A DNA stretch of 64,000 bases from an uncultured Bacteroidales bacterium (GTDB taxonomy: Bacteria; Bacteroidota; Bacteroidia; Bacteroidales; VadinHA17): assembly GCA_963736735.1 (NCBI GenBank), contig CAVTPX010000005.1:159932-223931 (forward strand). The letters are read 5' to 3'. Both the position numbers and the translations under genes were made by a program. The first letter of the stretch is position 1; every line of letters starts with the position of its first letter. Under the pieces are notes generated by a model. That model saw only the letters and a program-made list of their open reading frames with translations. It did not search any database and was not told where the DNA came from. Positions 12,097-48,254 of the stretch are shown one piece after another.

Positions 12097-12789
12097 ATGC
12101 TCGAAAAGCTTAAGGAAGATGTGTACAGGGCAAACCTTGAACTGGTAAGCCGCGGCCTGGTAATCATGACCTTCGGCAATGTAAGCGCCATTGACAGGGC
12201 CTCAGGTCTGATGGTTATCAAACCTTCAGGAGTTTCATATGATGAGATGACACCTGCTGACATGGTGGTTTCTGACCTTGACGGCAACGTTGTGGAGGGC
12301 ACACTGAAGCCTTCAACTGATGCCCCGACGCATGCCGCACTTTATAAGGTATTTCAGGGCATCGGAGGTGTTGTACATACCCATTCAGCCTATGCAACGG
12401 CATGGGCTCAGGCCGGGAAGAGCATCCCCTGCCTGGGTACAACTCATGCAGACAGTTTTTACGGGCCTGTTCCGGTGACCAGAAAACTCACTGAAAAGGA
12501 AATAAGTGACAGTTATGAGTATAATACGGGACTTGTGATTGCCGAGGCGCTTGAAGGAGTTGATCCGCTGTTTATGCCTGCTGTTGTTGTGCATTCTCAC
12601 GGCCCTTTCACCTGGGGTGAAACTGCTGCAAAAGCAGTATATAATGCGGTCATCCTTGAAGAGGTGGCGCGGATTGCGGCAATAACCGTTTCAATTTCCC
12701 CGACCGGGAATATTGACCAGGCACTGCTTAACAAGCACTTCCTTCGCAAACACGGCAGTAAAGCATATTACGGACAGAAGAATCATTAA
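12097..12789 (+). CDS. araD: L-ribulose-5-phosphate 4-epimerase
   Basis: 230 aa class II aldolase/adducin fold, with [25 protein letters not shown] and [14 protein letters not shown] typical of AraD. Confidence 0.95.
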
Positions 12790-12808
12790 TATACACGAGA
12801 TAACAGTT

Positions 12809-24100: not shown

Positions 24101-24257
24101 AAAACAGGTTGACCTGACTTTTACAGGTACCAACCTTCTGACCTGGACTCCCGGATTCAGACTCGGCGGTGACCCTGAAGGATTCAACTCAGGTGTTGAC
24201 TTTGGCGCATATCCGATGATGAAACGTTTCACATTCGAGGTAAGGCTATTGTTCTAA
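21125..24257 (+). pseudogene. SusC/RagA-family TonB-dependent transporter 1, one +1 frameshift near 23160 (or a sequence error)
   Basis: Fragments 21125..23212 (frame 2) and 23109..24257 (frame 3) are collinear. The N-terminus is TITGTVVDESGETLPGVTIVIEGTTRGVTTDFDGKFSI (CarboxypepD_reg) followed by VVVGYGVQKKETVVGAVSQV (the SusC plug entry). The C-terminus ends in a barrel strand, ...FTFEVRLLF. Confidence 0.85.
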
Positions 24258-24276
24258 ACAGGTAAAAACTACGAAA

Positions 24277-26031: not shown

Positions 26032-26061
26032 TAATCAAAATCTGGTTCAATTCTCAGAAAG

Positions 26062-29000: not shown

Positions 29001-29110
29001 TATTTTCCGGTCTGAAAAAATACAGTGTGGATCCTGAGAATATAACTGCAGGTATTAACGGCTATCCCCTTTTCAGGACAGTCACTGCGGGAGTTTCCTG
29101 TAAATTCTAA
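26062..29110 (+). pseudogene. SusC/RagA-family TonB-dependent transporter 2, +1 frameshift near 26185 (or a sequence error)
   Basis: The signal peptide MKNMKNKIFRTVLMFCALFSIFASSTAYPQERQISTVTGQ is encoded from 26062 in frame 1 and stops at 26197-26199. The protein continues in frame 2 (ORF 26189..29110) with VITDDAQPVQGVLVKAFNTNKVAFTDLQGNFSV, then a plug and a barrel ending ...TAGVSCKF. Confidence 0.8.
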
Positions 29111-29127
29111 TGTTAAAAAGCGAAACT

Positions 29128-31296: not shown

Positions 31297-31336
31297 AATG
31301 AGTTTACCAATAATGGGAAACGATAAAAAAGGAACT

Positions 31337-32698
31337 ATGAAAAAGATATTTATAATCATAACGCTGGCAGTCTTTCTGACAAGCTGCTACGACGAGTTCA
31401 GAAATGACTATCCATATACGACTGTTGCCTTTTCAACCGTCACCGGCGGACTCAATACCGCAGGTGAACTCGGGAGGACAGTTGTCAAGGACGAAGGCCT
31501 TAAACTTGACATTGGCGTCTATCTTGCCGGTGTGCTTGAAAATAAGGATGACAGATGGGTCAGGTATACAATTGATCCTGCCCTCCTGGCCGGTACTTCC
31601 TATACGCTCATGCCAACCAGCTACTACACGTTGAGCAATCCAAATACATTTGAGATTCCCGCTGGTGATTTTATTGGAAGAGTCACGGTTACCCTTGATT
31701 CAGCAGCGTTTCTTGCAGACAACAAATCTGCAAGTTATTCGTACGCAATTCCGATAAGATTGACTGAAACTTCCGCCGACTCCATACTTTCATCACAGAA
31801 TACCAAGATCGTTGTTATTAAATACATTAACCATTATGAAGGTTATTATGATAACACCGCATCATTTGTAAATTATGATGCAGGCGGCGGAGAGATGGGT
31901 TCAGACACAAAAGCCTCAGTGATCGATGCTAAAACGATCACTCTCGATTCTATCCTTGCAGACGGTGTAAACTACCTCGTGGGAGAGAACTACATGATTA
32001 AAATGGCTGTCAGACCTGATAAATCCGTATGGTTCAAGAAGCTTCCGAGCCCTCCGCAGGTGGCCAAGAATCTCGCACCCCAGGCTACCCTTGTTTCTAC
32101 ATCATATGTTTCCAGTTGGGAAAAACTCGAAGCAGTACGTGATGGATATGATCCGACAAGTTCAACGGACAAGAATGGCGCTGCATATGGTAACTGGAAT
32201 AGCTCAAATACCTGGAGATGGGTTCAGTACGACTTCCCCAGAGTTTGTAAAATCACTCAGTCTGACATCTACTGGTGGACTGACGGTGGAGGTATCCAGA
32301 TACCTGATGAAACATATGTCGAATACTGGAATGAAACAACCCAGGCATGGGCAACAGTACCTAATCCGGTTGGGAACGGAATTGTAATCAATCAGTACAA
32401 CATCACAACCTTCGACGAAGTTCTGACAACAAAGATCAGGGTTTGGATGATTGACCATGTCGAATCATGCGGTATCCTTGAATGGAAGGTGTGGGGTATC
32501 CCTGTACCGGTAACACCGGAACAGGCCATCATCGCTGATGTGGTTGCTGACGGTGCCAATACATTCGATCCTGCAACCAGCACTTTTACTCTGAACTATA
32601 AGGTGACTTATGAAAATGAAACTTATTATACAAAAGTCTCGTCGAAAATGATCTGGAGAAACAGGGTCAGAGACAAAGTCAACGAATGGAGAAGGTAG
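31337..32698 (+). CDS. Surface glycan-binding-protein-like lipoprotein (DUF1735/DUF4361-like) with an internal discoidin-like module
   Basis: The likely start is the Met at 31337 (MKKIFIIITLAVFLTSCYDEF). The N-terminal part resembles DUF1735 (YTLMPTSYYTLSNPNTFEIPAGDFIGRVTVTL). The module at nt ~32050-32510 is ~65-70% identical by eye to the insertion in the preceding SusD-like gene. The tail MIWRNRVRDKVNEWRR resembles DUF4361-type ends. Confidence 0.6.
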   Translation: MKKIFIIITLAVFLTSCYDEFRNDYPYTTVAFSTVTGGLNTAGELGRTVVKDEGLKLDIGVYLAGVLENKDDRWVRYTIDPALLAGTSYTLMPTSYYTLSNPNTFEIPAGDFIGRVTVTLDSAAFLADNKSASYSYAIPIRLTETSADSILSSQNTKIVVIKYINHYEGYYDNTASFVNYDAGGGEMGSDTKASVIDAKTITLDSILADGVNYLVGENYMIKMAVRPDKSVWFKKLPSPPQVAKNLAPQATLVSTSYVSSWEKLEAVRDGYDPTSSTDKNGAAYGNWNSSNTWRWVQYDFPRVCKITQSDIYWWTDGGGIQIPDETYVEYWNETTQAWATVPNPVGNGIVINQYNITTFDEVLTTKIRVWMIDHVESCGILEWKVWGIPVPVTPEQAIIADVVADGANTFDPATSTFTLNYKVTYENETYYTKVSSKMIWRNRVRDKVNEWRR

Positions 32699-32880: not shown

Positions 32881-32899
32881 ATATCAAACCGGAAATATC

Positions 32900-35247
32900 A
32901 TGAGAACCGTTTATTATTTGTTAGTTATGGCAGTAATACTCTCTTCATGCGGAGGGAGCAAAAGCGTAAAACAAGGGGCTACTGTTCCCAATGCTTCATT
33001 TGAGGATGCAACACTTACAGTTGTCAATGGGTGGACTTCCGAGGCACGTTCAAGGGATATGGTTGCATTCTATGATTTTGTCAGCCATGAAGGCAAAAGG
33101 AGCCTTACCCTCATTGCCGACAGGCCGGCATCAGGCAGGTGGCTGACAAAGGTCGGACTTAAGCCCTGGTCAAAGTACAAATTTACCGGGTGGGTGAAAA
33201 CCGAAAACCTTGCGGCAGCAAAAGGAAATGGAGCAGGCTTCAGATTTGATGCCTTCAATGTTGACTATCCCGGACTCACCGGCACGAACGACTGGACTAA
33301 ACTCGAATTTGAATTCGAGACGGGAAATGATGATTCATCAGTACTGTCATGCCTCATGAATGTTGACGGCAACGCCTCGGGAAGGGTCTGGTTTGACGAT
33401 CTCAGTCTTGAGCTTATTTCTTCAGAGGTTATAAAAACATCGGTTAAGATTGATATTGCTCAGGCCAGAGAGCCGATGTCAGAGTACATCTACGGTCAGT
33501 TCATTGAACATCTGGGCAAATGCATTTACGGGGGCATCTGGGCGGAGATGATTGAAGACCGCAAATTCTGGTACGTCCCAGGTGAGAGGGAATCTCCCTG
33601 GAGGATCACCGGCAGGAGAGAACTCTTTTCTGTAGATAAAACTGCGCCTTTTACAGGAACACAGACTCCGGTGCTTACTGCCGGCACAGATGGCGTTGTA
33701 TCGATGCAACAGTCAGGCCTTGGCCTTAAGCCTGATCTGGATTACAACGGCCGGATTATCCTGAAGTCAACCCCTGGTATTGAAAAGGTTGATATTATAC
33801 TGAGCTGGGCTGACAGGTCAGAGACAGTGACTGTGACCGGGTTGACAGGCAATTACGCAAGCTATCCCCTGGCTTTTCATTCCGGAGAGCTGACTCACAA
33901 TGCCTCTACTTGAGATAAAACCTTACGGAAACGGTAAGCTATGGGTGGGCACAGTAAGTCTTATGCCCTCAGACAATGTTGAAGGTTTCAGGCCTGATGT
34001 CTTGGACCTGCTTCGTCAGCTTGATGCACCAGTCTACAGGTGGCCGGGCGGCAACTTCGTGAGCGGATATGACTGGAAAGACGGCATCGGTGACCGTGAC
34101 AAAAGACCTCCACGGAAGAATCCGGCATGGCAGGGAGTGGAACATAATGATGTTGGAATCCATGAGTTCATGACATTCTGTAAACTGCTTGGCACTGAAC
34201 CTTATATTGCGGTCAATGCAGGTCTTGGCGACTCAAAGCAGGCACAGGAAGAAGTTGAATACTGTAACGGAGGCGCAGATGACACCAATGGGCAGACTCA
34301 GGACCTCCAACGGTCAGGCTGAACCCTGGAATGTTAAATGGTGGTCTATAGGTAACGAGATGTACGGCGACTGGCAGCTGGGTCACATGACAACAGAAGA
34401 TTTTGTGAATAAGCACAATGCATTCGCTGATGCAATGAGAAGTGTGGACCCATCAATAAAACTGATTGCCGTAGGTGATCTTGGCGACTGGGACCGGATG
34501 GTACTTGCCAACTGCTCTGAAAGCATGGACCTGATAAGTGAACATTTCTACCGTCAGGACTGGCACGGTGGAGGTCTTATGACCCACGTGAAACAGATTC
34601 CTGATGCAATCAGGGAGAAGGCAGATGCGCACCGCCAGTACAGGAAAGAGATACCTGCGCTTGAAGGGAAGGATATCCGCATATGCATGGATGAGTGGAA
34701 CTACTGGTACGGTCCGCACATTTACGGCGAACTGGGAACACGTTACTTCATGCGTGACGCTCTGGGAATTGCAGCCGGCATTAACGAGTATTCACGGCAA
34801 AGCGATATAATATTCATGGCAAATTATGCCCAGACTGTAAATGTAATCGGGTGTATAAAAACAAATACAACAAGTTCTGTTTTTGATCCTACCGGGCAGG
34901 CACTGAAAATGTACAGGAGACATTTCGGAACAATACCGGTAGCAGTTAGCGGTGAAACAAGACCCCTCGACATTGCTGCCACACTGAACAGCACAAAGGA
35001 TACCCTGACACTCTCTGTTGTGAATCCGACAATGGCACCTGTTGAATTCCCGCTTGAATTACTCAGCGGCACACTGACCCCTGGCGGAGAACTCTGGCAG
35101 GTGGTTGCCGAAGATGACATGGCCTACAATGAGCCCGGTCAGCCCGAGAAGGTCAGGATTGAAGGCCCGGTGGCAGTGACTTCGGGAAAATCGATTTCAG
35201 TAAATCCTGCCAGCATCAGCATTTACCGTTTCGGTATTAAAAAATAA
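32900..35247 (+). pseudogene. CBM4/9-like + GH51 alpha-L-arabinofuranosidase, two +1 frameshifts (~33909, ~34281), or sequence errors
   Basis: The fragments are 32900..33913, 33900..34322 and 34189..35247, in frames 2,3,1. The N-terminal CBM-like domain reads GWTSEA...KYKFTGWVKTENL...GRVWFDDLSLE. The GH51 core has YRWPGGNFVSGYDWKDGIG, WWSIGNEMYG (acid/base Glu) and ICMDEWNYW (nucleophile Glu). Confidence 0.85.
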
Positions 35248-38069: not shown

Positions 38070-40877
38070 ATGGCTTCGGAAAACACTTTTAAAACAATTA
38101 TCCTTTCAGCATTTGGCGCCGGTTTACTGCTGGTGACATCTGCAGTGCAGGGACAGAATGCAAGGCAGCAACAGCGGCCGCCTGAAGTACCGAAACAGGT
38201 GCTTGAAAACACAAATATCCGCGCGGCTTTTTCAGATCGGGGGGTCATATCACTTACAGATCCGCAGGATAAGTACAAGGCTGATATTATAAACAGCCGC
38301 TCGCCCTGGGGAAGGGTAAAACTGGCTTACAGGTCAGGTGCAGGTGAATGGATAGAGATGCCTGACTCTGTAAAGCAGCTGAAATCAGGAACATCAACGG
38401 CAGAATACATATCTGTGGATAAAAATGCTCCGGTAACCATGGATCAGCGTTTCACCCTCAACGGTGAAGTACTCGATTATGATATCACTGTAAAAAATAC
38501 CGGCACAGCACCGGTGGAGATAGGCGACCTTGGTATATTCCTTCCATGGAGGACAGCCTCCGGCGAGAATCCTGAATACATATTCGAAAATTGCTTCACA
38601 AAACACCATTATATCTCAGGCAACGGATCATTTATCTTCTTTACGAAGCCCTCGGGAGAACCTCCCTTCATAATGCTTTTGCCAAAAAAAGGTACCAAAC
38701 TGGAGTACTTTGACGGCGGCAGGGGAGGATATAAGGCATATATTCATTCTTCAGCAGCAGCAGCCAGTGTTGCAACCGGTACGTGGCGCCAGGCGAACAC
38801 CAGCCTGATGCTTGACCCCGGGAAAGGCAAATCCGAAGTAACCTACGGATTCAAAATCAAATGGGCAGACAGCTGGGATGACATGAGACAGACACTTTAT
38901 GAAGAGGGACTGTTCGATATCAGGGTCGTTCCGGGAATGACAATTCCCACAGATCTCACGGCAACCTTTTCACTGCATACAAAAAACAAAATAGACTCAA
39001 TAGTCCCTGAATTCCCGGGAAAAACAACTGTTAATTTCCTTGGAGAGAAACAGCCCGGACACCTCGTTTACAATGTCAGTTTCTCCAAACTTGGCGAAAA
39101 TATGCTGACTGTATGGTACGGTAACGGACAGAAGACCTACCTGGAGTTCTTTTCCACAGAACCGCTTGAAACTCTGGTGAAGAAAAGATCCTCTTTTATT
39201 GTAAACAGCACCCAGCACCGCGATACTACAAAATGGTACAACGGGCTCTATTCAGCCTATGACATGAAGAATGGCATCCTGCGCGGCCCTGACAATACCG
39301 ACGGCTATGACGGATGGTGGGGCTATGTGCTCGCGAGTGATGATCCCGGTCTGTGCAAGGCCCCTTATGTTGCAGCTAAGAACGTTTACTTTCCTGACGA
39401 TAAGGAAATTGCCTCAGTTGAGTATTACCTGAAGGAGTTTGTATGGAACGGCCTCCAGAGGACTGACAAGGATGATCCGTATCCTTACGGTATCTATGGC
39501 GTACCCAACTGGAAAGAGGCACGTGATCCGGCAGAGAGGGCTAAGATAAGCACGACTAACCTCGACAAGATGCATATCTGGCGCTCATATGATTACCCGC
39601 ATATTATAATGCTTTACTATCATATGTACCAGGTAGCGAAGATGTACCCTGAAAAGGTCCATTATCTTGACGCCGCAGGTTATCTTGAACGTGCATACCA
39701 GACTGCAAAGGCATACTTCATCTATCCCTACGAGATACTTCCCTGGTATGAGACATACAAGTGGGGCTGCTATAATGAGCTTGTCATCGAACCACTGATA
39801 GCTGACCTTGAAAAGGCAGGACGTTCCGCTGATGCAGCATGGCTGAGAAGTGAGTATGAAAAGAAGGTCAAATACTTCGTCTATGATGATGTCTACCCCT
39901 TCAGATCAGAGTATGCTCTCGACAGGACCGCCTTCGAATCATCATATGCATTCGCAAAATACGGCACACTGAACGAGATGAAGCCTGACAAAAACCTCTG
40001 GTATGATAAAAATGACAGTGTCTGGTATTCTCATCCTGTTGTCCGTAAGGAAGATTCGCGCGATTTTATGGAGCGGCAGAATCTTGCAGGACTGGCAGTT
40101 CGCGGCTGGCTTGAGACAAAATATTTCCTGCTCGGAAGCGACTTCACAAACAGCTCTGACAATCACTGCCTGAGTTACATGGCACGAATGGGCGGATGGG
40201 GAATCCTTGATTACGGCATTAACTTCTCTGAAAAACCTTACGACTGGCTTCAGCTGGGTTATGCCTCTTACCTGAGCTCATTTGCTCTTATGAACACCGG
40301 CACCGCAGAGACTGATTACGGTTTCTGGTTCCCGGGCAAGCAGAATGACGGAGCCATGGGCTGGGCTTTCATGGAGTCAAAAACCGGCAGGGCATGGATC
40401 AGGAAGGATATTGACCGCGGTGCATGGTTTTATGACGGAGAGGCTGACCTCGGCAACGGCGCAATATTCAGGACTGCACAGACGGTTCTGTCAGATGACC
40501 CGCTATTCGGATGGATATCTTACGGTGGTGTACTTACTCAGGCCAAAAAGGGATTTTATATTGTCCCGCGTGACGGCGTGAGATCCAGGTTCGCCATTGC
40601 CACCGAAAAAGTCAGGAAAACCCTGAGTCTTGATCACGACGGCTTTGCAGCTGAGAAACAGATAATCGTAACTCCGGCGCTTGACAAAGTGACCTTTACC
40701 CTCGAGAACAGGGGAGGCGGCAGCCACACCTCAATTCTGACAGTTACAACTCCTGAAGGAACTGAACCTGTTGTGACCGTAGACGGAAAGAAAGTGAAGG
40801 CGGTGAAAACAGGCGCAACCGCGTATGAAGCTGTGATCAGCGTATCAAAACCGACACATAAGATTACCGTACAATGA
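38070..40877 (+). CDS. Uncharacterised ~930-aa secreted protein, putative novel glycoside hydrolase (possibly DUF5695-like), tandem copy 1
   Basis: 935 aa with a signal peptide. A beta-rich N-terminal third is followed by a W/Y-rich central region (WWGYVLASDDPGLCKAPY, DPYPYGIYGVPNW, RSYDYPHIIMLYYHMYQVAKMYPE, GWGILDYGINFSEKPYDWLQLGYASYLSSFALMNTG) and a beta-rich C-terminus. I recognised no characterised catalytic signature. Confidence 0.7.
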   Translation: MASENTFKTIILSAFGAGLLLVTSAVQGQNARQQQRPPEVPKQVLENTNIRAAFSDRGVISLTDPQDKYKADIINSRSPWGRVKLAYRSGAGEWIEMPDSVKQLKSGTSTAEYISVDKNAPVTMDQRFTLNGEVLDYDITVKNTGTAPVEIGDLGIFLPWRTASGENPEYIFENCFTKHHYISGNGSFIFFTKPSGEPPFIMLLPKKGTKLEYFDGGRGGYKAYIHSSAAAASVATGTWRQANTSLMLDPGKGKSEVTYGFKIKWADSWDDMRQTLYEEGLFDIRVVPGMTIPTDLTATFSLHTKNKIDSIVPEFPGKTTVNFLGEKQPGHLVYNVSFSKLGENMLTVWYGNGQKTYLEFFSTEPLETLVKKRSSFIVNSTQHRDTTKWYNGLYSAYDMKNGILRGPDNTDGYDGWWGYVLASDDPGLCKAPYVAAKNVYFPDDKEIASVEYYLKEFVWNGLQRTDKDDPYPYGIYGVPNWKEARDPAERAKISTTNLDKMHIWRSYDYPHIIMLYYHMYQVAKMYPEKVHYLDAAGYLERAYQTAKAYFIYPYEILPWYETYKWGCYNELVIEPLIADLEKAGRSADAAWLRSEYEKKVKYFVYDDVYPFRSEYALDRTAFESSYAFAKYGTLNEMKPDKNLWYDKNDSVWYSHPVVRKEDSRDFMERQNLAGLAVRGWLETKYFLLGSDFTNSSDNHCLSYMARMGGWGILDYGINFSEKPYDWLQLGYASYLSSFALMNTGTAETDYGFWFPGKQNDGAMGWAFMESKTGRAWIRKDIDRGAWFYDGEADLGNGAIFRTAQTVLSDDPLFGWISYGGVLTQAKKGFYIVPRDGVRSRFAIATEKVRKTLSLDHDGFAAEKQIIVTPALDKVTFTLENRGGGSHTSILTVTTPEGTEPVVTVDGKKVKAVKTGATAYEAVISVSKPTHKITVQ

Positions 40878-43639
40878 AAATGAGAACCCTTCCCCGTGTT
40901 TGCCTGCTGATACTGCTGGCAGCGGTTGTATGTCATTCAACGGCCAGTGCACAGTCACGTGGCGGCCGGATCGTTCTGGAGAACAGTGCCATAAGCGGCA
41001 CGGTGACAATAGATGGTCTTACTTCCCTGACATCGCCTTCCGATCCGTTCGGAGCCAATGTCATCGGCGAGCGATCATGGGGAAGGGCATCTCTTACTTA
41101 TGAGATAGTTGAGGGCGCATGGCTTGAAATCTTCAAGGGCAGCACCCGTCTCGTTTCTGAATCTGACAACGCAGTCAGCATCATTAACTATGAAAAGGGG
41201 ATGCCCCAGAAGATGGAGCAGAGGTATACCCTTACCCCCGGAGGCATTGACTATGATATCAATATTGAGTCGATGATGCAATGGCCTGTCACAATCGGTG
41301 ACCTGGCCGTGAGCCTGCCTTTCCGGAGACCCGGCGGAGGCAGTCCCGAAGCCATCTTCGAGAAGTCGTTCACGATGCACCAGTTCATCTCCGGCAGCGG
41401 CTCATTCATCTATTTTGCCAGGCCTTCGGGAGAGGGCCCTTTCCTGATGGTGCTCCCCAAAAAAGGGACGAAGCTTGAGTATTTTGATGATGCAGGTGAA
41501 TACAAGGTTTTTATTCATTCAGCCGTATCAGGGCCTGCAGTAAAAAGCGGCACCTGGCGCCAGCAACACACCTCCTTGAACATGGGGCCTGCCGGAAGCG
41601 AAAACAGCCGCGTCAGCTATGGCTTTAAATTCCGCTGGGCAAAGAGCTGGGATGATATGCGGCAGATGCTTTATGATGAGGGTCTGTTTGACATCAGGGT
41701 AGTGCCGGGGATGACAATCCCTTCCGACCTTAAGGCACTCTTCTCTCTTCATACGAAAAACAAAATTGATTCGGTAACAGCAGAATTTCCGCTGAAGACA
41801 AAAGTAAAATACCTGGGTGAGAAGCAACCGGGTCATTTTATCTGGGAAGCTGAGTTCGGAAAGCTGGGTGAAAACCTTCTGACTGTACACTATAACGACG
41901 GGCAGAAGACATATCTGGAGTACTTCTCAACAGAACCGGTGGAGACTCTGATTAAAAAGCGCAGTTCCTTCATTGTCAACAGCCAGCAACACCGTGACAC
42001 GACAAAGTGGTATAACGGGCTCTTTTCAGTCTACGACATGAAGAACGGCATCCTGCGAGGTCCGGATGACACTGACGGCTTCGACGGCTGGTGGGGCTAT
42101 GTCCTCGCCTGTGATGACCCTGCACTTTGCAAGGCACCGTACCTTGCTGCAAAGAACGTCTATTATCCTGACGACAGTGAGATCGAAGCAATAGAATATT
42201 ACCTTGAGAATTTTGTGTGGAACGGACTTCAAAGGACAGATAAGGATGATCCTTATCCCTACGGTATCTATGGTGTTCCGAACTGGAAGGTGTCAAGAGA
42301 CATCAATGCCAGGGCGGGCATAAGGAGCCGGCAACTCGACCGGATGCAGGTATGGCGTTCATATGACTACCCTCATATCTTCATGCTCTATTACCACATG
42401 TACCAGATCGCGAAGATGTATCCTGAAAAGGTGAAATATCTGAGTGCGGAGCAGTACCTCGAGCGGGCTTATATGACCGCACGGGCATTTTTCATCTATC
42501 CGTATGAAATCTGGGGCGACTATTACAAGCCATATGAGATAGCCTGTTACAATGAACTCGTGATTGAGGATATTGTCTCGGCACTTCAGGAAGGCGGGAG
42601 AGTCAGTGAGGCTAAGTGGCTGAAGGGTGAATATGAGAAGAAGGCGAAGTTCTTTATTTATGACAACAGGTATCCTTACGGTTCCGAGTACTCTTTTGAC
42701 AGAACCGCTTTTGAATCATCATATGCGCTGGCGAAGTACGGTGTACTAAATAATATGTCTGCTGATACCAATCTGTGGTATGACAAGAATGCCGGCAAAT
42801 GGCTGTCGCATCCTGTAGTCAGGCAGGAAGACGCCAGGGATTTCATGGAGCGTCAGCATCACTCAGGCCTTACTGTAAAAGGGTGGCTGGAGACAAGCTA
42901 CTACCAGCTCGGGGCTGATAACAGCATGAGTTATATGGCGAAGATGGGAGGGTGGTCGATACTCGATTACGGCATCAACTTCGCAGAAAAGCCTTCCGAC
43001 TGGCTGCAGCTGGGCTACGCCTCGTATCTCAGTTCATTTGCACTGATGAATACAGGGACTGCTGAGAGCGACTACGGCTTCTGGTTCCCGGGAAAGAAGA
43101 ATGACGGTGCCATGGGATGGGCGTTTATGGATAATAAACATGGCATGGCCTGGATGCGGAAAGAGGTTGACAGGGGTGCATGGTTTTATGACGGCGAAGC
43201 TGACCTTGGCAACGGCGCTATCTTCAGGATGGCGCAGACAGTGCTCTCCAATGACCCTCTCTTTGGCTGGATAGCCTATGGCGGAACACTCAGAGAAACA
43301 AAAACGGGCTTTTTAATAACCCCGAAAGACGGCGTCAGAAACAGGTTCTCACTTGTGGCAGGCGACCGCAGGTTCTCTGTGACTCTTGAGAGAGACGGTT
43401 TCTCTGATAAAAGAGAGATAAGCGTTTCCAAAAACCTTAAATCGATGGCGATGTACCTTGAAAACAGGGCAGGTAAAGATCATGATGCGACCGTAACCGT
43501 CGAGAATCATACGGACCATACGGTGACTCTTAAACTTGACGGAAAGAAAGTGATGCCGGTTTCATCAGCCAACGGTTTTATACGTTTTGATATTAAAGTT
43601 GCAGGGAATGATCAGAAGATTGAGGTGCTTACCGATTAG
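40874..43639 (+). CDS. Uncharacterised ~920-aa secreted protein, tandem copy 2 (paralogue of 38070..40877)
   Basis: 921 aa. It is ~70-75% identical by eye to copy 1 across the central region (e.g. WWGYVLACDDPALCKAPY, RSYDYPHIFMLYYHMYQIAKMYPE). Its start overlaps the copy 1 stop (ATGA at 40874-40877). Confidence 0.7.
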   Translation: MKMRTLPRVCLLILLAAVVCHSTASAQSRGGRIVLENSAISGTVTIDGLTSLTSPSDPFGANVIGERSWGRASLTYEIVEGAWLEIFKGSTRLVSESDNAVSIINYEKGMPQKMEQRYTLTPGGIDYDINIESMMQWPVTIGDLAVSLPFRRPGGGSPEAIFEKSFTMHQFISGSGSFIYFARPSGEGPFLMVLPKKGTKLEYFDDAGEYKVFIHSAVSGPAVKSGTWRQQHTSLNMGPAGSENSRVSYGFKFRWAKSWDDMRQMLYDEGLFDIRVVPGMTIPSDLKALFSLHTKNKIDSVTAEFPLKTKVKYLGEKQPGHFIWEAEFGKLGENLLTVHYNDGQKTYLEYFSTEPVETLIKKRSSFIVNSQQHRDTTKWYNGLFSVYDMKNGILRGPDDTDGFDGWWGYVLACDDPALCKAPYLAAKNVYYPDDSEIEAIEYYLENFVWNGLQRTDKDDPYPYGIYGVPNWKVSRDINARAGIRSRQLDRMQVWRSYDYPHIFMLYYHMYQIAKMYPEKVKYLSAEQYLERAYMTARAFFIYPYEIWGDYYKPYEIACYNELVIEDIVSALQEGGRVSEAKWLKGEYEKKAKFFIYDNRYPYGSEYSFDRTAFESSYALAKYGVLNNMSADTNLWYDKNAGKWLSHPVVRQEDARDFMERQHHSGLTVKGWLETSYYQLGADNSMSYMAKMGGWSILDYGINFAEKPSDWLQLGYASYLSSFALMNTGTAESDYGFWFPGKKNDGAMGWAFMDNKHGMAWMRKEVDRGAWFYDGEADLGNGAIFRMAQTVLSNDPLFGWIAYGGTLRETKTGFLITPKDGVRNRFSLVAGDRRFSVTLERDGFSDKREISVSKNLKSMAMYLENRAGKDHDATVTVENHTDHTVTLKLDGKKVMPVSSANGFIRFDIKVAGNDQKIEVLTD

Positions 43640-44567
43640 CTACTGTTTCTTTCCGCTTGTGTTTTTGCTGATCATGTCAGCCTGCGGAACCGCCAGGAGG
43701 AATGATACAACATTCCTTGTGGCTGCTGATATTCACCTTGACAGTACCGACGTGAGGGCGGCAGTGATCGATTCGGTTATTGACCTTATGAATTCTGTGA
43801 AGGGAACACCGGTAACGGGTGTCGCGGGTAAATCTTATAATCCTTTCGGTCTTTTTGTGATCGGCGATCTTACTGATTCCGGGAGTGATACTCAATGGGA
43901 TCAGTTCACCTCGCTCTTCGGGCTGAACGGTGAAAAGGCTTTGGCTATGCCGGTATATGAGACCTTCGGTAATCACGACGGAAACAGTGGGGGTGTTGTA
44001 AGGGAGGGGATAACAGCCAGGAATTCTGCAAGAAGCACAAAGATTAATATTTCTTCGAACGGCATCCACTACAGCTTTGACAGGGGTGGTATTCACTTTG
44101 TGGTACTGGGCAGTTATCCGGGAGGCGTGTGGGATCCGGAATGCGGGTGGTGCCACTATTTTAAAGAATCATTCAGGGAATCTGAGATGAGCCTGGAGTT
44201 CCTTAAAAGCGACCTGGCCATGAATCTCCGCAACAGAAGACAACCCGTTGTGCTCTTCTTTCACTACGGCTGGGATGATTTCAGCCTTCTGTGGTGGACC
44301 GGTAAGGAACAGGAGGCATTTGCCGAAGCCATAAAAGAGTATAATGTTGCAGCCATATTTCACGGGCACAACCATTCTGCCGCGGCATATAAATGGAACG
44401 GCATAGATGTCTTCAGCAGCGGGTCACCGCAGAGAGGCTCATCAATTGGCAACTTCCTCATTGTGAGGTCCGATGGCGACAGCCTCTCGGTAACCTCCGT
44501 TGAAAGGAAAAAGAGAGGTACCGCTGGGCACTGTTTCCCTTTCAGGAAAATAATTGCTGACAGGTAA
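43608..44567 (+). CDS. Calcineurin-like metallophosphoesterase lipoprotein
   Basis: The motifs are FLVAADIHLD, GDLTDSG, GNHD and FHGHNH. The ATG at 43608 precedes a lipoprotein-type signal (FLLIMSACG). The ORF-track start at 43587 is a TTG inside the preceding gene. Confidence 0.8.
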   Translation: MIRRLRCLPISYCFFPLVFLLIMSACGTARRNDTTFLVAADIHLDSTDVRAAVIDSVIDLMNSVKGTPVTGVAGKSYNPFGLFVIGDLTDSGSDTQWDQFTSLFGLNGEKALAMPVYETFGNHDGNSGGVVREGITARNSARSTKINISSNGIHYSFDRGGIHFVVLGSYPGGVWDPECGWCHYFKESFRESEMSLEFLKSDLAMNLRNRRQPVVLFFHYGWDDFSLLWWTGKEQEAFAEAIKEYNVAAIFHGHNHSAAAYKWNGIDVFSSGSPQRGSSIGNFLIVRSDGDSLSVTSVERKKRGTAGHCFPFRKIIADR

Positions 44568-46928
44568 AGCCTAAAGCTTTACTGTCAGCTTCTTGCCGTG
44601 TGTATTTTACCTTTTTTGTAACTGATCCTGTCACTTTTTCGATCACAAGCTCGCGACTTACCGGCAGGTTGACGGCGCCTTCAGGAGCATCCGGGAATAT
44701 CGTCAGTTTCCTGCTTTTGTCGTTCCATCTGAATGTGGTCCATCTGCCAATACCTTCAAGGTATTGCTGGCTTATGCCGTCATCTTCGTACATCGTGAAT
44801 TTACCGTCGGCGCCGGGATAGATTTTTATTGTTGTCGGACCGCTTACTTTTTCTCCGGTATACTGTCTGACAGGATCAATGGGGATTATTGCGCCTGCCC
44901 TTACAAATATTGGCATTACAGACAGGTTCACATCCCTGGTTACATCTTTTCCGCCGGAATACTCGGTATTATTCCACCAGTCGTACCACAGTCCGTCAGG
45001 AAGATAAACTGTCCGTGTCTTTGCGCCCTTTTCAAATACAGGTGCAATGAGCATGTCCGGGCCCCACATAAACTGATTGCCGAAGCCCTGCAGCCTTCTC
45101 ATCTTCAGGATATTGCAGCCACATTGCACGCATCAGGGGCATCCCGGTGGCATGCGCTTCCCAGGCGAGGGTATAAGTGTAGGGGAGAAGCTGGTAGCGA
45201 AGCTCGGCGTATTTCTTTACTACCGGTTCGATCAGCGGGTTATTCATCTCCGACACAAGCGGATTGCGTTTGTCAGTATCCCTTGCCGGGGTGTTGCGGT
45301 TATTGTCTTCCCTGGGGCCCATGTCAGACAGTCCCCATCCCCAGGGCAGAGCCGTGAACCATGTGCGGCCGTGCGACCTGAATGATCCGCAGAAGGCACC
45401 GAACTGGAACCAGCGGGCATAGAGCTCGCCCGTCTTTTCATTATTGGGGTAGAAGCCTCCTATGTCAGATCCCCAGTAGGGCCCGATGCTCAGGGAGTGG
45501 TTTATGCCTACGGCAATCTGTCCCTCGAGAGTCTTCCATGATGTCTCAGTATCACCTGACCAGACCCAGCCGCCCCACTGGGCTATTCCCAGGTGGCCGT
45601 TACGGTGCAGGCTCCACGGACGGGTGTCAGGGGTGGTGGAGAGAGGTCCCTGGTAGTACAGCTGGTGCCTCTTGATTCTTTCAAAGAGATTGAACCAGTC
45701 GCCCTCATCAGGCCAGAAGGCGTCAATGCCTTTATCCATAAGCCCGACATGCTGCTGCCAGTAGTTCTGAATGTGGGATGAATCAAGCACTTCTCCGGGC
45801 AGGGCAGGGATGGTGCCGTGAAGGGTGGGGAGCCTGTCGCGGTCCCAGGGGACCATGTGTACAACAACTTTTACATTACGGTCATGGAGATCGGACAGAA
45901 CCTTTTCAGGCTCTCTTTTGAATACATCCGGGTTAAAATCAAATGATGGCTGCATTGTATTCCATCCTCGCGGGCAGAAGCCGGTGCCGAGGTAGATGAC
46001 GGCATCAATTGGAATGTGCTTTACCCTGAAGGTGTCAACAATTCCTATTAACTGATTTTCATCGTCAAGGGTGCGGTGCGACTGCATGTACCCGAGAGAC
46101 CAGAGTGGCGGCATCACTGCCGGACCGCTGACAAGGCTCAGTTCCTTCATGAATGTGGCAGGGTTGTGGGCGTCAAAGACGAAGATGTCAAGGAGACCCT
46201 TTACATAATCTTCTGCCGGTGGCAGTCCTTTCCCCTGGTTGAGTCCCTGGTTGGCAACATTCTGCACAGTTGTCTGCGGTTCACGGTCCAGGGGTATGAA
46301 GAGGCCTTTGTCCTCCGGGCGCAGGTCAATCTCGCCCCAGGGGGTTGCAACGAACAGGGCCCAGCCGTCGGTACCTATCATAAGCGCTACAGGGTTTCGT
46401 GAGCCGTAGGCGTCGCTCTGCCAGCGCGGCACCATTGCATGGTAGCTGCCGTTGCGGTCATACTGTATCGGTGCTGTACGCCAGTCGGTGCCGCGCTCGG
46501 GACGCGGTCCTCCTTCACCCATGCCAAGCACGGGATCACTGCTCTTCGCAAAGGAGAAGCCCCCTTCGTCATTGAAGACTTATTTCCTGCACTTCTTTGC
46601 CTGCTGCGTTGGTTATCCTTATCCTGAGAGGGTCTGCGGTGACTTCGACATTCAGACCGGCAATGCGTTTGGTGACAGGATGTGATATCTCCTCAAGTAC
46701 AATAGCAGGTTCGGCATATTTCCTGTCAGCAAGGGCGGGGGTGAATGGCAGGTCAGCAGCGAAGTCAGCGGGCTTTAAGGTTATGCGCACTGAATTCTTT
46801 TCTGCCTCGCGTATCTCAAGCTTCCCGGGCTTCCCGTTAACTGTGATTTTCTGAGCACTGACGGTTGCCGGACCGGATGCAAGGGTAACAGTTAAGATGC
46901 AGGTAAGAACTGATTTAAGAATGTGCAT
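44542..46928 (-). pseudogene. GH31 alpha-glycosidase (alpha-xylosidase/alpha-glucosidase-like), two +1 frameshifts (~46578, ~45087), or sequence errors
   Basis: The fragments are 46569..46928 (signal peptide MHILKSVLTCILTVTLASGPATVSAQ), 45032..46531 and 44542..45129. The GH31 signatures are GIDAFWPDEGDWF (nucleophile-Asp region) and GGWVWSGDTETSWKTL (W-x-GD-x-x-S-W). Confidence 0.8.
44556..44589. terminator. Hairpin between the convergent metallophosphoesterase and GH31 genes
   Basis: gctgacaggtaaagc-ctaaa-gctttactgtcagc forms a ~14-bp stem with one bulge. Both convergent ORFs end inside it, and no strong T-tract follows. Confidence 0.4.
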
Positions 46929-47120
46929 TTTGATATCGGGTTTATTTTTGGATCTGTTCGTAGGGTGCGTTAAAATAATAAGTTGCCGGGCACTCTCCAA
47001 TAATTTTTAGTTAATAAACCTTGTTTAATGCTCAGAAACATTGCATAACGGTTGAGGGGCAACCGAAAATCTGTTAATTTCGCAGAAAGAGATAAAAAGC
47101 TGATAAATCAAAATTATTTT

Positions 47121-48254
47121 ATGATGAAAAGTTTCAGATTATTAACACTGGCGATGGTCCCGGTTCTGATAGCCGGAATGATTGCCTGCAAGGGTACTAA
47201 AAAACAAGAGATGGTAAAAAGTGAAGCATTCGGCACCTTCAGCGGTAAAGAGGTGACTCTGTTCACCCTGACAAATAAGAAGGGCGATATCATTAAGCTG
47301 ACGAATTATGGCGCAGCAATAGTTGAAATTTCTGTTCCGGACCGTAACGGTGTTCGTGAGAATGTCACCTTCGGGTATGATAACCTCGATGGTTATATTA
47401 ACGGTGACCTTTACTTCGGGAAGGTTGTGGGCCAGTATGCAAACCGCATTGCAAAGGGAAAATTCACCCTCGACAGCACGGAATACAATCTGGATCTGAA
47501 TAACGGTCCCAACTCACTGCACGGCGGCGGCACAGGCTGGCACAGCAGGGTCTGGGATGCACAGGTGCTTGAGAACACCGATTTCCCGGCAGTAAGGTTT
47601 ACTTACAACAAGCCTGACATGGAAGAGGGCTACCCGGGCAATGTTGTTGCTGAGGTTGTCTACAGCTGGACTGACAATGACGAGATCATAATGGACTATA
47701 AGGTGTCGACTGACAAAAGAACTGTTATAAATATCACCAACCATGCCTATTTCAATCTTCACGGCACCGGCAAAGGTGACATACTTGACCATGAAGCCAT
47801 CGTAAGGGCATCAGCGTTCACACCTGTTGATTCAACGTTAATTCCCACAGGGGAAATTCGTCCGGTTGACGGAACACCTTTCGACTTCCGCACACCTCAT
47901 CTGATTGGTGAGAGGATCGGTATGGATGAAGAGCAGTTAAAACTTGGCGGTGGTTATGACCACAACTTCGTGCTTGACAATGCCGAGGAAGTTGATGCTA
48001 TGGTTTATGATCCTTCCACAGGCAGGGTTATTGAGGTTCTCACAGACCAGCCCGGTGTGCAGCTTTATACAGGCAACTTCCTTGACGGAACCCAGACAGG
48101 TCGCGGCGGCAAGGTTTACCAGTACCGTTCAGGTTTCTGCCTTGAGACGCAGCATTTTCCTGACGGTCCCAACCAGGCAACTTTCCCGTCAGTGGTGCTG
48201 ACACCTGATGAGCCTTTCCTCTCGAGTACCACTTACAGGTTCAGTGTAAAATAA
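47121..48254 (+). CDS. galM: Aldose 1-epimerase (mutarotase), lipoprotein-type signal
   Basis: The ATG at 47121 gives MMKSFRLLTLAMVPVLIAGMIACKG. The motifs NGPNSLHGGGTGW, TNHAYFNL and FCLETQHFPDGPN are typical of GalM. Confidence 0.9.
   Translation: MMKSFRLLTLAMVPVLIAGMIACKGTKKQEMVKSEAFGTFSGKEVTLFTLTNKKGDIIKLTNYGAAIVEISVPDRNGVRENVTFGYDNLDGYINGDLYFGKVVGQYANRIAKGKFTLDSTEYNLDLNNGPNSLHGGGTGWHSRVWDAQVLENTDFPAVRFTYNKPDMEEGYPGNVVAEVVYSWTDNDEIIMDYKVSTDKRTVINITNHAYFNLHGTGKGDILDHEAIVRASAFTPVDSTLIPTGEIRPVDGTPFDFRTPHLIGERIGMDEEQLKLGGGYDHNFVLDNAEEVDAMVYDPSTGRVIEVLTDQPGVQLYTGNFLDGTQTGRGGKVYQYRSGFCLETQHFPDGPNQATFPSVVLTPDEPFLSSTTYRFSVK

What the first reader, a model, noticed from the sequence alone, without database searches (positions are those of the whole stretch)
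38070..43639. Tandem pair of ~930-aa uncharacterised secreted proteins at the heart of the PUL: candidate new glycoside hydrolase family
Two adjacent, translationally coupled paralogues (ATGA overlap at 40874-40877, ~70-75% identical by eye) occupy 5.6 kb. They have no frame disruption in a window that is otherwise riddled with them. The layout is a beta-rich N-terminal third, a W/Y-rich ~400-aa centre (WWGYVLA(S/C)DDP, DPYPYGIYGVPNW, RSYDYPHI(I/F)MLYYHMYQ) and a beta-rich C-terminus. This is what one expects of an (alpha/alpha)6-barrel glycosidase with flanking sandwiches. I do not recognise any CAZy signature in them. From memory they resemble proteins annotated DUF5695, but I cannot verify that. 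Given the GH127/GH51 context, one plausible role is an endo- or biosidase step on beta-L-arabino-oligosaccharides, analogous to GH121 acting upstream of GH127. This is conjecture.
Basis: inference. Interest (0 to 1): 0.75.

Follow-up and report, generated by a model that had tools for sequence, protein, structure and literature searches.

The report
PL27-related enzyme pair in arabinoside locus
Two adjacent, intact genes encode secreted DUF5695 proteins that are distant relatives of the one characterised branch of that family, the PL27 sugar lyases. They sit in a gene cluster for digesting beta-L-arabinose-decorated plant glycans, which makes them a good but not startling lead for a new carbohydrate-enzyme family.

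Summary
ORFs at 38070-40877 (935 aa, A) and 40874-43639 (921 aa, B) overlap by ATGA, are intact, and are paralogues at 61% identity, not 70-75%. Both match Pfam DUF5695.

CAZy family PL27 (L-Rha-alpha1,4-GlcA lyase, PDB 5NO8) is a fringe member. A and B are its remote homologues (hhalign 99.8%, E 6e-30; Foldseek E 6e-26, TM 0.76).

The AlphaFold model shows a beta domain, an (alpha/alpha)6 barrel and an extra C-terminal sandwich. R505, Y509, E614 and Y703 are invariant from A/B to PL27. PL27's conserved Asn450 and His612 are mostly Asp and Ser in the A/B clade, which also gains invariant carboxylates.

Across 84 related loci the neighbours are GH127 (34 loci), GH51, SusC/D, alpha-galactosidase-type families, prolyl peptidases and sulfatases. 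GH105/GH88 never appeared among the annotated neighbours.

The best reading is periplasmic glycan-cleaving enzymes, probably hydrolases, acting on beta-L-arabinofuranosylated (extensin-type) oligosaccharides or glycopeptides. The activity is untested.

A third DUF5695 gene lies at 50189-52717. The intactness of A and B is not informative.

The parts
38070..40877 (+). DUF5695 paralogue A (935 aa). It has a signal-like N-terminus (1-31), an N-terminal beta domain (aa 43-363, nt 38196-39158), an (alpha/alpha)6-type helical barrel (aa 366-802, nt 39165-40475) and a C-terminal beta-sandwich (aa 805-934, nt 40482-40871). Clade-invariant polar residues are D424, W481, R505, Y509, E570, E614, D618, E623, R678, Y703 and E791.
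   Evidence: ORF; PF18951 at 169 bits; AF2 model with pLDDT 80 and pTM 0.84; Foldseek top hit PL27 5NO8, E 5.6e-26; conservation in a 46-sequence diverse alignment
40874..43639 (+). DUF5695 paralogue B (921 aa), 61% identical to A, with its start overlapping A's stop (ATGA). It keeps the clade-invariant residues (D414, W471, R495, Y499, E561, E605, D609, E614, Y687, E775), except that K669 replaces R678. It lacks a 7-residue insertion present in A near aa 692-698.
   Evidence: B has its own orthologue group (19 of 120 listed homologues are closer to B), and the tandem A->B arrangement recurs in L016, L018, L088 and L089
35284..37998 (+). 904-aa GH127 beta-L-arabinofuranosidase-type protein with an N-terminal F5/8 type C domain. 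It is the conserved gene immediately upstream of A-type DUF5695 (72-bp gap here).
   Evidence: Pfam GH127 catalytic, middle and C domains. Best PDB sequence matches are 6EX6 (E 9e-100) and 4QJY, against GH146 5OPJ at only 6e-16. A GH127 gene ends <=600 bp upstream on the same strand in 15 of 56 loci that have >=3 kb of upstream sequence. The same pair is seen in L084, L085 and L088
50189..52717 (-). Third DUF5695 gene (C, 842-aa ORF). It is the canonical Pfam-core type, only 22% identical to A. It retains the PL27-like Asn (N551) and His-Tyr (H718-Y719).
   Evidence: PF18951 at 1227 bits; BLASTP against A gives E 2e-24; alignment columns. C-type copies lie next to A-type in L006, L008, L009, L033, L068, L071, L076 and L088
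14473..20849 (+). Three consecutive GH127 genes (14473-16449, 16457-18421, and 18432-20849, the last with an F5/8C domain).
   Evidence: Pfam; PDB sequence matches to GH127 structures
21125..32698 (+). Two SusC/SusD pairs and a BT_3987-like surface protein. SusC 21125-24257 is frameshifted; SusD is at 24277-26031, SusC at 26189-29110, SusD at 29110-31296, and the BT_3987-like gene at 31286-32698.
   Evidence: Pfam; tblastn with orthologues
32897..35244 (+). GH51 alpha-L-arabinofuranosidase with an N-terminal CBM4_9-like domain, broken into three reading frames in this window. It is intact (781-784 aa) in L020 and L088.
43587..44567 (+). Calcineurin-like metallophosphoesterase directly downstream of B. 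It recurs downstream of DUF5695 in L018, L047, L055, L066, L085, L088 and L089. The true start is probably later than the listed TTG.
44542..46579 (-). GH31 gene, frameshifted here and an intact 784 aa in L088.
47052..48254 (+). Aldose 1-epimerase.
   Evidence: present in 13 related loci
9858..14476 (+). L-arabinose catabolism and regulation: AraA isomerase (9858-11348), a NUDIX/AraR-type regulator (11342-12046), a class II aldolase/AraD-type epimerase (12097-12789) and an FGGY kinase (12713-14476).
   Evidence: Pfam

Best explanation
A and B are two anciently duplicated periplasmic carbohydrate-active enzymes. They belong to an uncharacterised, family-sized clade of the DUF5695 superfamily, whose only characterised branch is polysaccharide lyase family PL27.

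Each protein has an N-terminal beta-sandwich, an (alpha/alpha)6 barrel that holds the active-site pocket, and a C-terminal beta-sandwich that PL27 lacks. The pocket is built from residues at the N-terminal ends of alternate barrel helices. These comprise the superfamily-invariant R505, Y509, E614 and Y703, plus the clade-specific carboxylates D424, D508, E570, D618, E623 and E791.

I infer that A and B cleave a glycosidic linkage in oligosaccharides or glycopeptides imported through the SusC/D pairs of this locus. The linkage would be one that the co-encoded exo-enzymes (four GH127 beta-L-arabinofuranosidases, a GH51 alpha-L-arabinofuranosidase and a GH31) cannot remove. The most plausible substrate is the beta-L-arabinofuranosyl chain of hydroxyproline-rich (extensin-type) glycoproteins, for example release of a beta-arabino-oligosaccharide unit or of the Hyp-proximal residue. 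The chemistry is more likely hydrolysis than uronate beta-elimination. A, B and the third copy C would each handle a different linkage.

Shown: homology, fold, conserved residues, gene neighbourhood. Inferred: location, hydrolytic chemistry, substrate.
For: Family and fold:
- PF18951 matches both proteins.
- The profile of A/B homologues hits only PL27 BACCELL_00875 among all PDB sequences, at E 2.3e-8.
- hhalign against a PL27 alignment gives 97.3%. With a diverse A-clade profile it gives 99.8%, E 5.9e-30, 644 columns.
- The AF2 model has 5NO8 as by far the best Foldseek match: E 5.6e-26, TM 0.76 normalised to the target. The next hits are at E 1e-8 with TM 0.2.

Active site:
- In 46 A-clade sequences at 26-61% identity, only about 13 polar positions stay >=95% conserved. 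R505, Y509, Y520, E614 and Y703 are also invariant in PL27 (R447, Y451, Y462, E537, Y613) and in C.
- D424, E570, E614/D618, Y703 and E791 each lie at the N-terminal entry of a helix in the DSSP trace. This is where (alpha/alpha)6 enzymes build their pocket (established knowledge).

Against lyase chemistry:
- PL27's invariant N450 is Asp in 36 of 46 A-clade sequences.
- PL27's H612 is Ser in 34 of 46.
- Q542 becomes D618 and P547 becomes E623.
- No GH105/GH88 or uronate-catabolism gene occurs in the window or in any annotated neighbour cluster of 84 loci.

Context:
- GH127 occurs in 34 of 84 loci and is directly upstream in 15 of 56.
- GH51 occurs in 23 loci and SusC/D in about 19.
- Neighbours also include GH31, GH27-like and GH97 families; the peptidases S9, S28, C69 and M1; and DUF885.
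- L-arabinose catabolic genes lie in the window.
- Extensin carries Hyp-linked beta-1,2-Araf chains (PMC10850190, PMC7263609).
Against: - No enzymatic data exist for any member of this clade.
- The only characterised relatives are lyases, and four superfamily-invariant pocket candidates, including two Tyr and an Arg, are retained. Lyase-type chemistry is therefore not excluded.
- I could not read the PL27 paper, so I do not know which PL27 residues were shown to be catalytic. I recall only that a Tyr is the proposed base.
- The most conserved loops (411-424, 460-504, 756-788) are modelled with low confidence.
- About half of the longer loci have no GH127 within 10 kb. There the neighbours are sulfatases, GH2, GH27-like proteins and peptidases, so the clade is not tied to arabinosides everywhere.
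- The extensin assignment rests on gene content alone.
- The signal peptide type was judged by eye.
Confidence: 0.45

Rival explanations
1. A and B are genuine polysaccharide lyases like PL27. They would remove a sugar (L-Rha, L-Araf or similar) that is 4-linked to a uronic acid on arabinogalactan-protein-type side chains, by beta-elimination with a Tyr base.
For: The only characterised homologues are PL27 lyases. R505, Y509, E614 and Y703 are equivalent to the PL27 invariants R447, Y451, E537 and Y613. The best structural match of the locus's GH127 genes is 6EX6, which I recall, unverified, to be the AGP-associated BT3674. Beta-L-Araf also occurs on AGPs (PMC10850190).
Against: PL27's invariant Asn450 is mostly Asp in the clade, and its His612 is mostly Ser. 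An Asp next to a substrate carboxylate is unfavourable unless a metal intervenes. No GH105/GH88 unsaturated-uronyl hydrolase, other lyase or uronate-catabolism gene is found in the window or in any annotated neighbour cluster, whereas PL27 works with GH105 (recalled from the abstract of Munoz-Munoz 2017). The window annotation shows no beta-galactan-degrading families expected of an AGP locus.
Confidence: 0.2
2. They are glycosidases for a non-arabinose linkage of the same or another glycoconjugate, for example Ser-O-alpha-Gal of extensins or a linkage in a sulfated glycan. The GH127 association would then reflect only a shared substrate polymer.
For: In loci without GH127, the immediate neighbours are sulfatases (6), GH2 (5), GH27-like proteins with NPCBM (3) and S9 peptidases (3). 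Sulfatases occur in 11 loci overall. Multi-copy arrays, such as 5 tandem copies in L078, suggest varied specificities.
Against: The tightest and most frequent linkage is to GH127, as an adjacent co-directional gene. Dedicated alpha-galactosidase-type families (GH31, GH27-like, GH97) are already present in these loci.
Confidence: 0.15
3. They are non-catalytic glycan-binding or chaperone-like periplasmic proteins that retain an enzyme fold.
For: No activity is known. Several PL27 pocket residues are replaced.
Against: A small set of polar residues (Arg, Tyr, Glu, Asp) is invariant across sequences down to 26% identity and is shared with the active enzyme family PL27. The family is large and is maintained in multiple paralogous copies inside catabolic loci.
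Confidence: 0.05

Closest known systems
CAZy PL27, L-rhamnose-alpha-1,4-D-glucuronate lyases (BACCELL_00875 = PDB 5NO8/5NOK, BT0263, BACFIN_07013)
   Same: It is a homologue. It has the same N-terminal beta-sandwich plus (alpha/alpha)6 barrel (Foldseek E 5.6e-26, TM 0.76; hhalign 99.8% over 644 columns). Shared invariant residues are R447/R505, Y451/Y509, Y462/Y520, E537/E614 and Y613/Y703. Shared motifs are KR..FI..QQ and R-x-Y-(N/D)-Y. Both fall under Pfam PF18951, where PL27 scores 28 bits and A scores 169 bits.
   Different: Identity is only about 14-19%, and pairwise phmmer finds nothing. A and B are about 240 residues longer. They have an extra C-terminal beta-sandwich (805-934) and conserved loop insertions (about 413-421, 466-471, 479-502 and 783-797). 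N450 becomes D508, H612 becomes S702, W453 becomes H511, Q542 becomes D618 and P547 becomes E623. The gene context is GH127/GH51 rather than AGP enzymes and GH105.
Canonical (Pfam-core) DUF5695 proteins, such as gene C of this window (50189-52717)
   Same: They belong to the same Pfam family and have the same N-domain plus barrel. They share D424/D457, W481/W538, R505, Y509, H511, E614, D618, E623 and Y703. They are often encoded in the same loci.
   Different: Identity is 22% (E 2e-24). C keeps the PL27-like Asn (N551) and His-Tyr (H718-Y719) and lacks E570 and R678. This clade is itself uncharacterised.
GH121 beta-L-arabinobiosidase HypBA2 (PDB 6M5A)
   Same: The overall layout is the same: N-terminal beta-sandwich, (alpha/alpha)6 barrel and C-terminal beta-sandwich. 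It works with GH127 and an alpha-L-arabinofuranosidase on extensin Hyp-arabinosides (PMC7263609). It is the best functional analogy for the proposed role.
   Different: There is no detectable sequence relationship (the profile search of PDB sequences at E<=10 did not find it), and it is not among the top 50 Foldseek matches. HypBA2 is extracellular and membrane-anchored in a Gram-positive bacterium, whereas A and B look periplasmic.
GH142 (BT1020), GH127 and GH146 beta-L-arabinofuranosidases
   Same: These are (alpha/alpha)6-type enzymes acting on beta-L-Araf. GH127 genes are the commonest neighbours of A/B-type genes.
   Different: No sequence match was found. GH127 and GH146 use a Cys nucleophile (PMC10850190), and no corresponding conserved Cys appears among the A-clade invariant positions.

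Membership tests
Pfam PF18951 (DUF5695) | Whole-protein HMM score above the curated gathering threshold (25.2 bits) | tested here: met
   A scores 169 bits and B 143.2 bits. The best stretch covers profile positions about 24-617 of 857. Gene C scores 1227 bits and PL27 scores 28.3 bits.
CAZy PL27 | Direct, family-level sequence similarity to the characterised members across the catalytic module | tested here: not met
   phmmer of A against all PDB sequences finds nothing at E<=10. BLASTP of A against a 99%-identical BACCELL_00875 homologue gives 19% identity over 283 aa and 37 bits. The relationship is seen only with profiles. The dbCAN/CAZy PL27 model itself was not available.
CAZy PL27 | Same fold: N-terminal beta-sandwich plus (alpha/alpha)6 barrel | tested here: met
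   Foldseek gives E 5.6e-26 and TM 0.76 (target-normalised) to 5NO8. A has an additional C-terminal sandwich (the hhalign alignment ends at A residue 778).
CAZy PL27 | Conservation of the PL27-invariant pocket residues | tested here: inconclusive
   R447, Y451, E537 and Y613 are conserved. N450, W453, H536, Q542 and H612 are replaced. Which of these are catalytic in PL27 could not be checked, because the primary paper is not held.
CAZy PL27 | Beta-eliminative cleavage of L-Rha-alpha1,4-GlcA, giving a 4,5-unsaturated uronate | not testable with these tools
   This requires an enzyme assay (A235, MS or NMR).
CAZy PL27 | Genomic partnership with an unsaturated-uronyl hydrolase (GH105/GH88) and AGP-degrading enzymes | tested here: not met
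   None is present in the window or among the annotated recurrent or adjacent neighbours of 84 loci. A PL27 locus, by contrast, carries GH115, GH43, GH28 and GH35.
CAZy GH121 | Sequence similarity to HypBA2 and its invariant E383/D515/E713 | tested here: not met
   The A/B family profile searched against PDB sequences (which include 6M5A) returned only PL27 at E<=10. 6M5A is not in the Foldseek top 50.
CAZy GH121 | N-sandwich / (alpha/alpha)6 / C-sandwich architecture | tested here: met
   AF2 secondary-structure map, compared with the description in PMC7263609. This is a resemblance of layout only.
CAZy GH127 / GH146 / GH142 / GH137 | Sequence match to the family's domains or solved members | tested here: not met
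   Pfam at E<=1 gives only DUF5695. NCBIfam gives nothing meaningful. PDB sequence searches give no such hit. The neighbouring genes, in contrast, match GH127 at E 1e-100 to 1e-198.

The most novel reading that the evidence does not exclude
The A/B clade may be a new enzyme activity on hydroxyproline-rich glycoproteins. It would detach whole Hyp-linked beta-L-arabino-oligosaccharides, or the Hyp-proximal arabinose, from the peptide. It might do this with a repurposed version of the Tyr/Arg proton-abstraction machinery inherited from PL27 lyases, rather than with a classical two-carboxylate hydrolase mechanism. This would explain two things: the linkage to prolyl peptidases and amidases in non-Bacteroidota genomes, and the retention of the lyase-family Arg and Tyr residues without any uronate-processing partners.
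Probability: 0.1. Interest if true: 0.8.

Novelty: new variant of a known kind. Interest (0 to 1): 0.5.

Why it matters
Beta-L-arabinofuranosides on extensins, AGPs, arabinan and RG-II are among the plant-glycan linkages whose microbial breakdown is least understood. In Bacteroidota and Acidobacteriota, no counterpart of the bifidobacterial GH121 step is known.

This clade is large: 1004 clusters at 50% identity match A at E<=1e-3 across the whole superfamily, and 307 at E<=1e-30. It is widespread in Bacteroidota, Acidobacteriota and Aminicenantes. Its strongest genomic link is to GH127 (34 of 84 loci).

Assigning its activity would probably found a new CAZy family in the same clan as PL27. 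It would fill a step in hydroxyproline-rich glycoprotein or arabinoside turnover in soils, sediments and digesters. It would also show how a lyase scaffold and a probable hydrolase scaffold diverged.

The analysis also shows that the 'DUF' label hides a known relative, since PL27 already falls under PF18951.

Tried and rejected
No sequence or top structural match was found.
- **NCBIfam.** Only sub-threshold noise came back.
- **Literature.** 'DUF5695' gave one irrelevant paper and 'PF18951' none. Searches on PL27, BT0263 and BACCELL_00875 found no description of a family covering these proteins. The primary PL27 paper (Munoz-Munoz 2017, PMC5555188) is not held, so the catalytic residue numbers could not be taken from it.
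- **A 246-aa BACCELL_00875 fragment as search query.** It returned only fragments. The full-length protein was instead rebuilt from a frameshifted Logan contig and used successfully.
- **Exact look-up of the window's own contig through protein A.** No gene record was found. The cluster look-up shows only that it comes from a 417-kb NCBI/ENA contig.
- **Promoter and terminator scans of 34-47.5 kb.** Results were at shuffle background and uninformative.
- **The idea that the intactness of A and B signals selection.** Rejected, because the other long genes are also intact and sister assemblies have no frameshifts.
- **AGP as the substrate.** Considered and ranked below extensin-type glycoprotein, because no beta-galactan or uronate enzymes are present.
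- **Spatial clustering of conserved residues.** This could not be measured because model coordinates are not exposed.


Full report
**Observation.** A runs 38070-40877 (935 aa) and B runs 40874-43639 (921 aa), both on the + strand. A's TGA stop and B's ATG start overlap as ATGA at 40874-40877. The quoted W/Y-rich motifs are present in both proteins. BLASTP gives 61% identity and 75% positives over 919 residues, lower than the 70-75% estimated by eye. Both proteins begin with a hydrophobic signal-like segment. A has no cysteine there and B has an ASA|Q site, so I read both as SPI-type and periplasmic. This is an inference, as no predictor was available.

Frame disruptions elsewhere in the window are real. 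GH51 is spread over three frames, and GH31 and the first SusC over two each. However, the four GH127 genes, the second SusC/SusD pair and the epimerase are intact as well. Two short-read assemblies carry the same locus at about 97% protein identity with every gene whole (L088, L089). The frameshifts are therefore assembly errors or strain-specific decay, and the intactness of A and B carries no information.

**Family.** Both proteins match Pfam PF18951 (DUF5695) at 169 and 143 bits. NCBIfam and a single-sequence search of PDB sequences give nothing. The literature search found no characterisation under that name.

A profile built from 48 homologues (A1) hits exactly one solved protein: BACCELL_00875 (PDB 5NO8/5NOK), at E 2.3e-8. 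This is one of the three founding members of polysaccharide lyase family PL27. These enzymes remove L-rhamnose from L-Rha-alpha1,4-GlcA caps of arabinogalactan proteins by beta-elimination. They consist of an N-terminal beta-sandwich and an (alpha/alpha)6 barrel (PMC8377490).

An AlphaFold2 model of A has pLDDT 80.3 and pTM 0.84. It shows a beta domain (43-363), a helical barrel (366-802) and a further beta-sandwich (805-934). Foldseek against the PDB puts 5NO8 far ahead of everything else, at E 5.6e-26 and TM 0.76 normalised to the target. The next hits, such as GH94 phosphorylases, have E about 1e-8 and TM about 0.2.

I rebuilt a full-length BACCELL_00875-type sequence from a frameshifted contig. 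It scores 28.3 bits on PF18951 against a threshold of 25.2. Its homologues carry precomputed PF18951 hits, and one cluster is named 'DUF5695 domain-containing protein' by NCBI. PL27 is thus a fringe subfamily of DUF5695.

Profile-profile comparison of A/B homologues with a PL27 alignment gives 97.3% probability. With a much more diverse A-clade profile it gives 99.8%, E 5.9e-30, over 644 columns. These cover A residues 1-778 and almost the whole of PL27. Homology is therefore established, at 14-19% identity.

**Anatomy of the superfamily.** The window holds a third DUF5695 gene, C, at 50189-52717 on the minus strand. It matches the Pfam model at 1227 bits but is only 22% identical to A. There are thus at least three clades: Pfam-core (C), the A/B clade and PL27.

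An exhaustive search of 1.84 billion cluster representatives finds 1004 clusters related to A at E<=1e-3 and 307 at E<=1e-30. Within the A/B clade, A and B have separate orthologue groups. The A->B tandem recurs in L016, L018, L088 and L089. One Balneolaceae contig has five tandem copies. C-type genes sit beside A-type genes in eight loci. The duplication is therefore old and retained.

In an alignment of 46 A-clade sequences at 26-61% identity to A, together with C and eight PL27 proteins, few polar positions stay >=95% conserved in the A clade. They are D424, W481, R505, Y509, Y520, E570, K599, E614, D618, E623, R678, Y703 and E791. Of these, R505, Y509, Y520, E614 and Y703 are also invariant in C and in PL27, as R447, Y451, Y462, E537 and Y613. 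The independent hhalign alignment reproduces the equivalences for R505, Y509, E614 and Y703.

D424, E570, E614/D618, Y703 and E791 each lie at the N-terminal entry of a helix in the model. This is the arrangement in which (alpha/alpha)6 enzymes form their central pocket.

The A clade differs from PL27 at several PL27-invariant positions:
- N450 is Asp508 in 36 of 46 sequences and Asn in 8.
- H612 is Ser702 in 34 of 46.
- W453 is His511.
- Q542 is Asp618.
- P547 is Glu623.

Gene C keeps the PL27-like Asn and His-Tyr. The A clade also has conserved loop insertions relative to PL27, containing the WWGYVLA.DDP, PYPYGIYG.PNW and GAMGW motifs. AlphaFold models these with low confidence.

**Context.** Upstream on the same strand lie:
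- L-arabinose catabolic genes (AraA, an AraR/NUDIX regulator, an AraD-type aldolase and an FGGY kinase);
- three GH127 genes;
- two SusC/SusD pairs;
- a BT_3987-like protein;
- a GH51 with a CBM4_9-like domain;
- a 904-aa GH127 with an F5/8C domain, which ends 72 bp before A.

Downstream lie a metallophosphoesterase, a convergent GH31 and an aldose epimerase. All four GH127-type genes are true GH127: their best PDB matches are 6EX6 and 4QJY, and GH146 matches only weakly.

I fetched 80 genome loci encoding A/B relatives from Bacteroidales, Rikenellaceae, Chitinophaga, Pedobacter, Zunongwangia, Acidobacteriota, Aminicenantes and Balneolaceae. I added annotated contigs and clustered their flanking ORFs. 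The counts were:
- GH127 in 34 of 84 loci. A GH127 gene ends within 600 bp upstream on the same strand in 15 of 56 loci with enough upstream DNA, and one lies within 10 kb in 24 of 51 loci of 15 kb or more.
- GH51 in 23 loci.
- SusC in 19 and SusD in 18.
- DUF6055 in 16.
- Epimerase in 13.
- Sulfatase in 11.
- GH27-like proteins with NPCBM in 8.
- S9 prolyl peptidase in 7.
- GH2 in 5.
- GH39, GH97, peptidase C69, DUF885, GFO/IDH/MocA oxidoreductase and BNR proteins in 4 each.

In Aminicenantes-type genomes the gene sits between an S9 peptidase and an amidase, next to an M20 peptidase and a DAO-type FAD oxidoreductase pair. In 40 loci without GH127, the adjacent genes are sulfatases, aconitase-family proteins, GH2, S9 peptidases, GH27-like proteins, DUF6055 and GH51. 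No GH105, GH88, other lyase or uronate-catabolism gene appeared anywhere. By contrast, a PL27 locus carries GH115, GH43, GH28 and GH35.

**Interpretation.** Shown:
- A and B are homologues of PL27 lyases with the same two-domain core plus a C-terminal sandwich.
- They belong to a large uncharacterised clade.
- They keep a small invariant set of Arg, Tyr and Glu residues shared with PL27.
- They are most often encoded with beta-L-arabinofuranosidases.

Inferred:
- They are periplasmic enzymes acting on imported oligosaccharides or glycopeptides.
- The combination of GH127 (beta-L-Araf), GH51 (alpha-L-Araf), alpha-galactosidase-type families and proline-specific peptidases fits hydroxyproline-rich, extensin-type glycoproteins best. 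Their Hyp residues carry beta-1,2-linked Araf chains (PMC10850190; PMC7263609). That extensin chains carry an alpha-1,3-Araf cap and that extensin Ser residues carry alpha-Gal is from my own knowledge.
- The replacement of PL27's conserved Asn and His, the gain of invariant carboxylates and the complete absence of unsaturated-uronate partners make hydrolysis more likely than uronate beta-elimination.

HypBA2 has the same three-domain layout and works with GH127. The two are not related in sequence.

I put 0.45 on this composite explanation. Its general part, a carbohydrate-active enzyme of the PL27 superfamily working in arabinoside and glycoprotein loci, is much more secure than the specific chemistry and substrate. 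The rivals are a true lyase acting on 4-substituted uronates (0.2), a glycosidase for a different linkage or for sulfated glycans (0.15) and a non-catalytic protein (0.05).

**Novelty and value.** This is not a categorically new kind of system. It is an uncharacterised, family-sized variant of a known enzyme superfamily, and in CAZy terms it would probably become a new family in the PL27 clan. It is a well-supported target for enzyme discovery in a poorly charted part of plant-glycan degradation. A specialist would be interested rather than astonished, so I score interest at 0.5.

The most novel reading not excluded is an enzyme that detaches Hyp-linked arabinosides from peptides using lyase-derived chemistry. 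I give it a probability of about 0.1.

**Limits.**
- The primary PL27 paper could not be read. My statement that a Tyr is its proposed base and that GH105 acts downstream is from memory of its abstract.
- Model coordinates, dbCAN models and a signal-peptide predictor were not available.

Noticed in passing
window 50189-52717 (minus strand): A third DUF5695 gene (842-aa ORF, PF18951 at 1227 bits), only 22% identical to A. It keeps the PL27-like Asn and His-Tyr that A and B have lost. Its orthologue in L088 is called as 920 aa, so the window copy may be N-terminally truncated. C-type genes accompany A-type genes in eight other loci.
   Followed up: partly
window 32897-35244, 44602-46579, 21125-24257, 9104-9820: Frameshifted genes: GH51 in three frames, GH31 in two, the first SusC in two, and an SSF symporter reduced to a C-terminal fragment. 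The same locus in the short-read assemblies L088 and L089, and the GH51 in L020, are intact. This points to assembly indels or very recent decay in the window's genome.
   Followed up: yes
window 55682-58444 (minus strand); also L008 and L009: A 3-keto-disaccharide-hydrolase-like (DUF1080) gene lies next to a GFO/IDH/MocA oxidoreductase, followed by a GH3 with a PA14 domain at 58494-61154. The same pair lies between the epimerase and the C-type DUF5695 gene in L009, and each of the two genes recurs in four related loci (L008 has at least the DUF1080 gene). From memory, the pairing resembles oxidative (3-keto) glycoside-cleavage systems.
   Followed up: partly
window 48001-50000 and 52001-56000: Two low-GC stretches (0.37-0.38, against 0.45-0.52 around them) flank gene C. 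They encode a response-regulator/thioredoxin-like protein, a histidine-kinase fragment and a MutS2/ABC-like ATPase. Gene order here differs from L009, where the epimerase, DUF1080, GFO oxidoreductase and C are contiguous.
   Followed up: no
L082, L090, L091 (Aminicenantes-type and similar contigs): There is a conserved trio of S9 prolyl peptidase, DUF5695 and amidase. In L082 and L090 an M20 peptidase and a Fer2/FAD plus DAO oxidoreductase pair lie upstream, resembling D-hydroxyproline or opine dehydrogenases (from memory). This hints at glycopeptide or hydroxyproline metabolism.
   Followed up: no
L066 12887-16753, L085 4911-7124 and 14 other loci: DUF6055 proteins are the fifth most frequent neighbour of A/B-type genes (16 loci). 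Some carry Shr-like, fn3 and T9SS sorting domains. Their function is unknown, and they are absent from this window.
   Followed up: no
L078 4122-18369 (Balneolaceae MAG): Five A/B-type DUF5695 genes in a head-to-tail array, at 45-52% identity to A or B.
   Followed up: no
window 43587-44567; L018, L047, L055, L066, L085, L088, L089: A calcineurin-like metallophosphoesterase recurs directly downstream of the DUF5695 gene or genes. Its role in a glycan-utilisation locus is unexplained.
   Followed up: no
Pfam PF18951 / PL27 proteins P0306-P0425: Characterised PL27 lyases score just above the PF18951 threshold, and NCBI names some as 'DUF5695 domain-containing protein' and others as 'six-hairpin glycosidase'. 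The DUF label therefore hides an existing functional anchor.
   Followed up: yes
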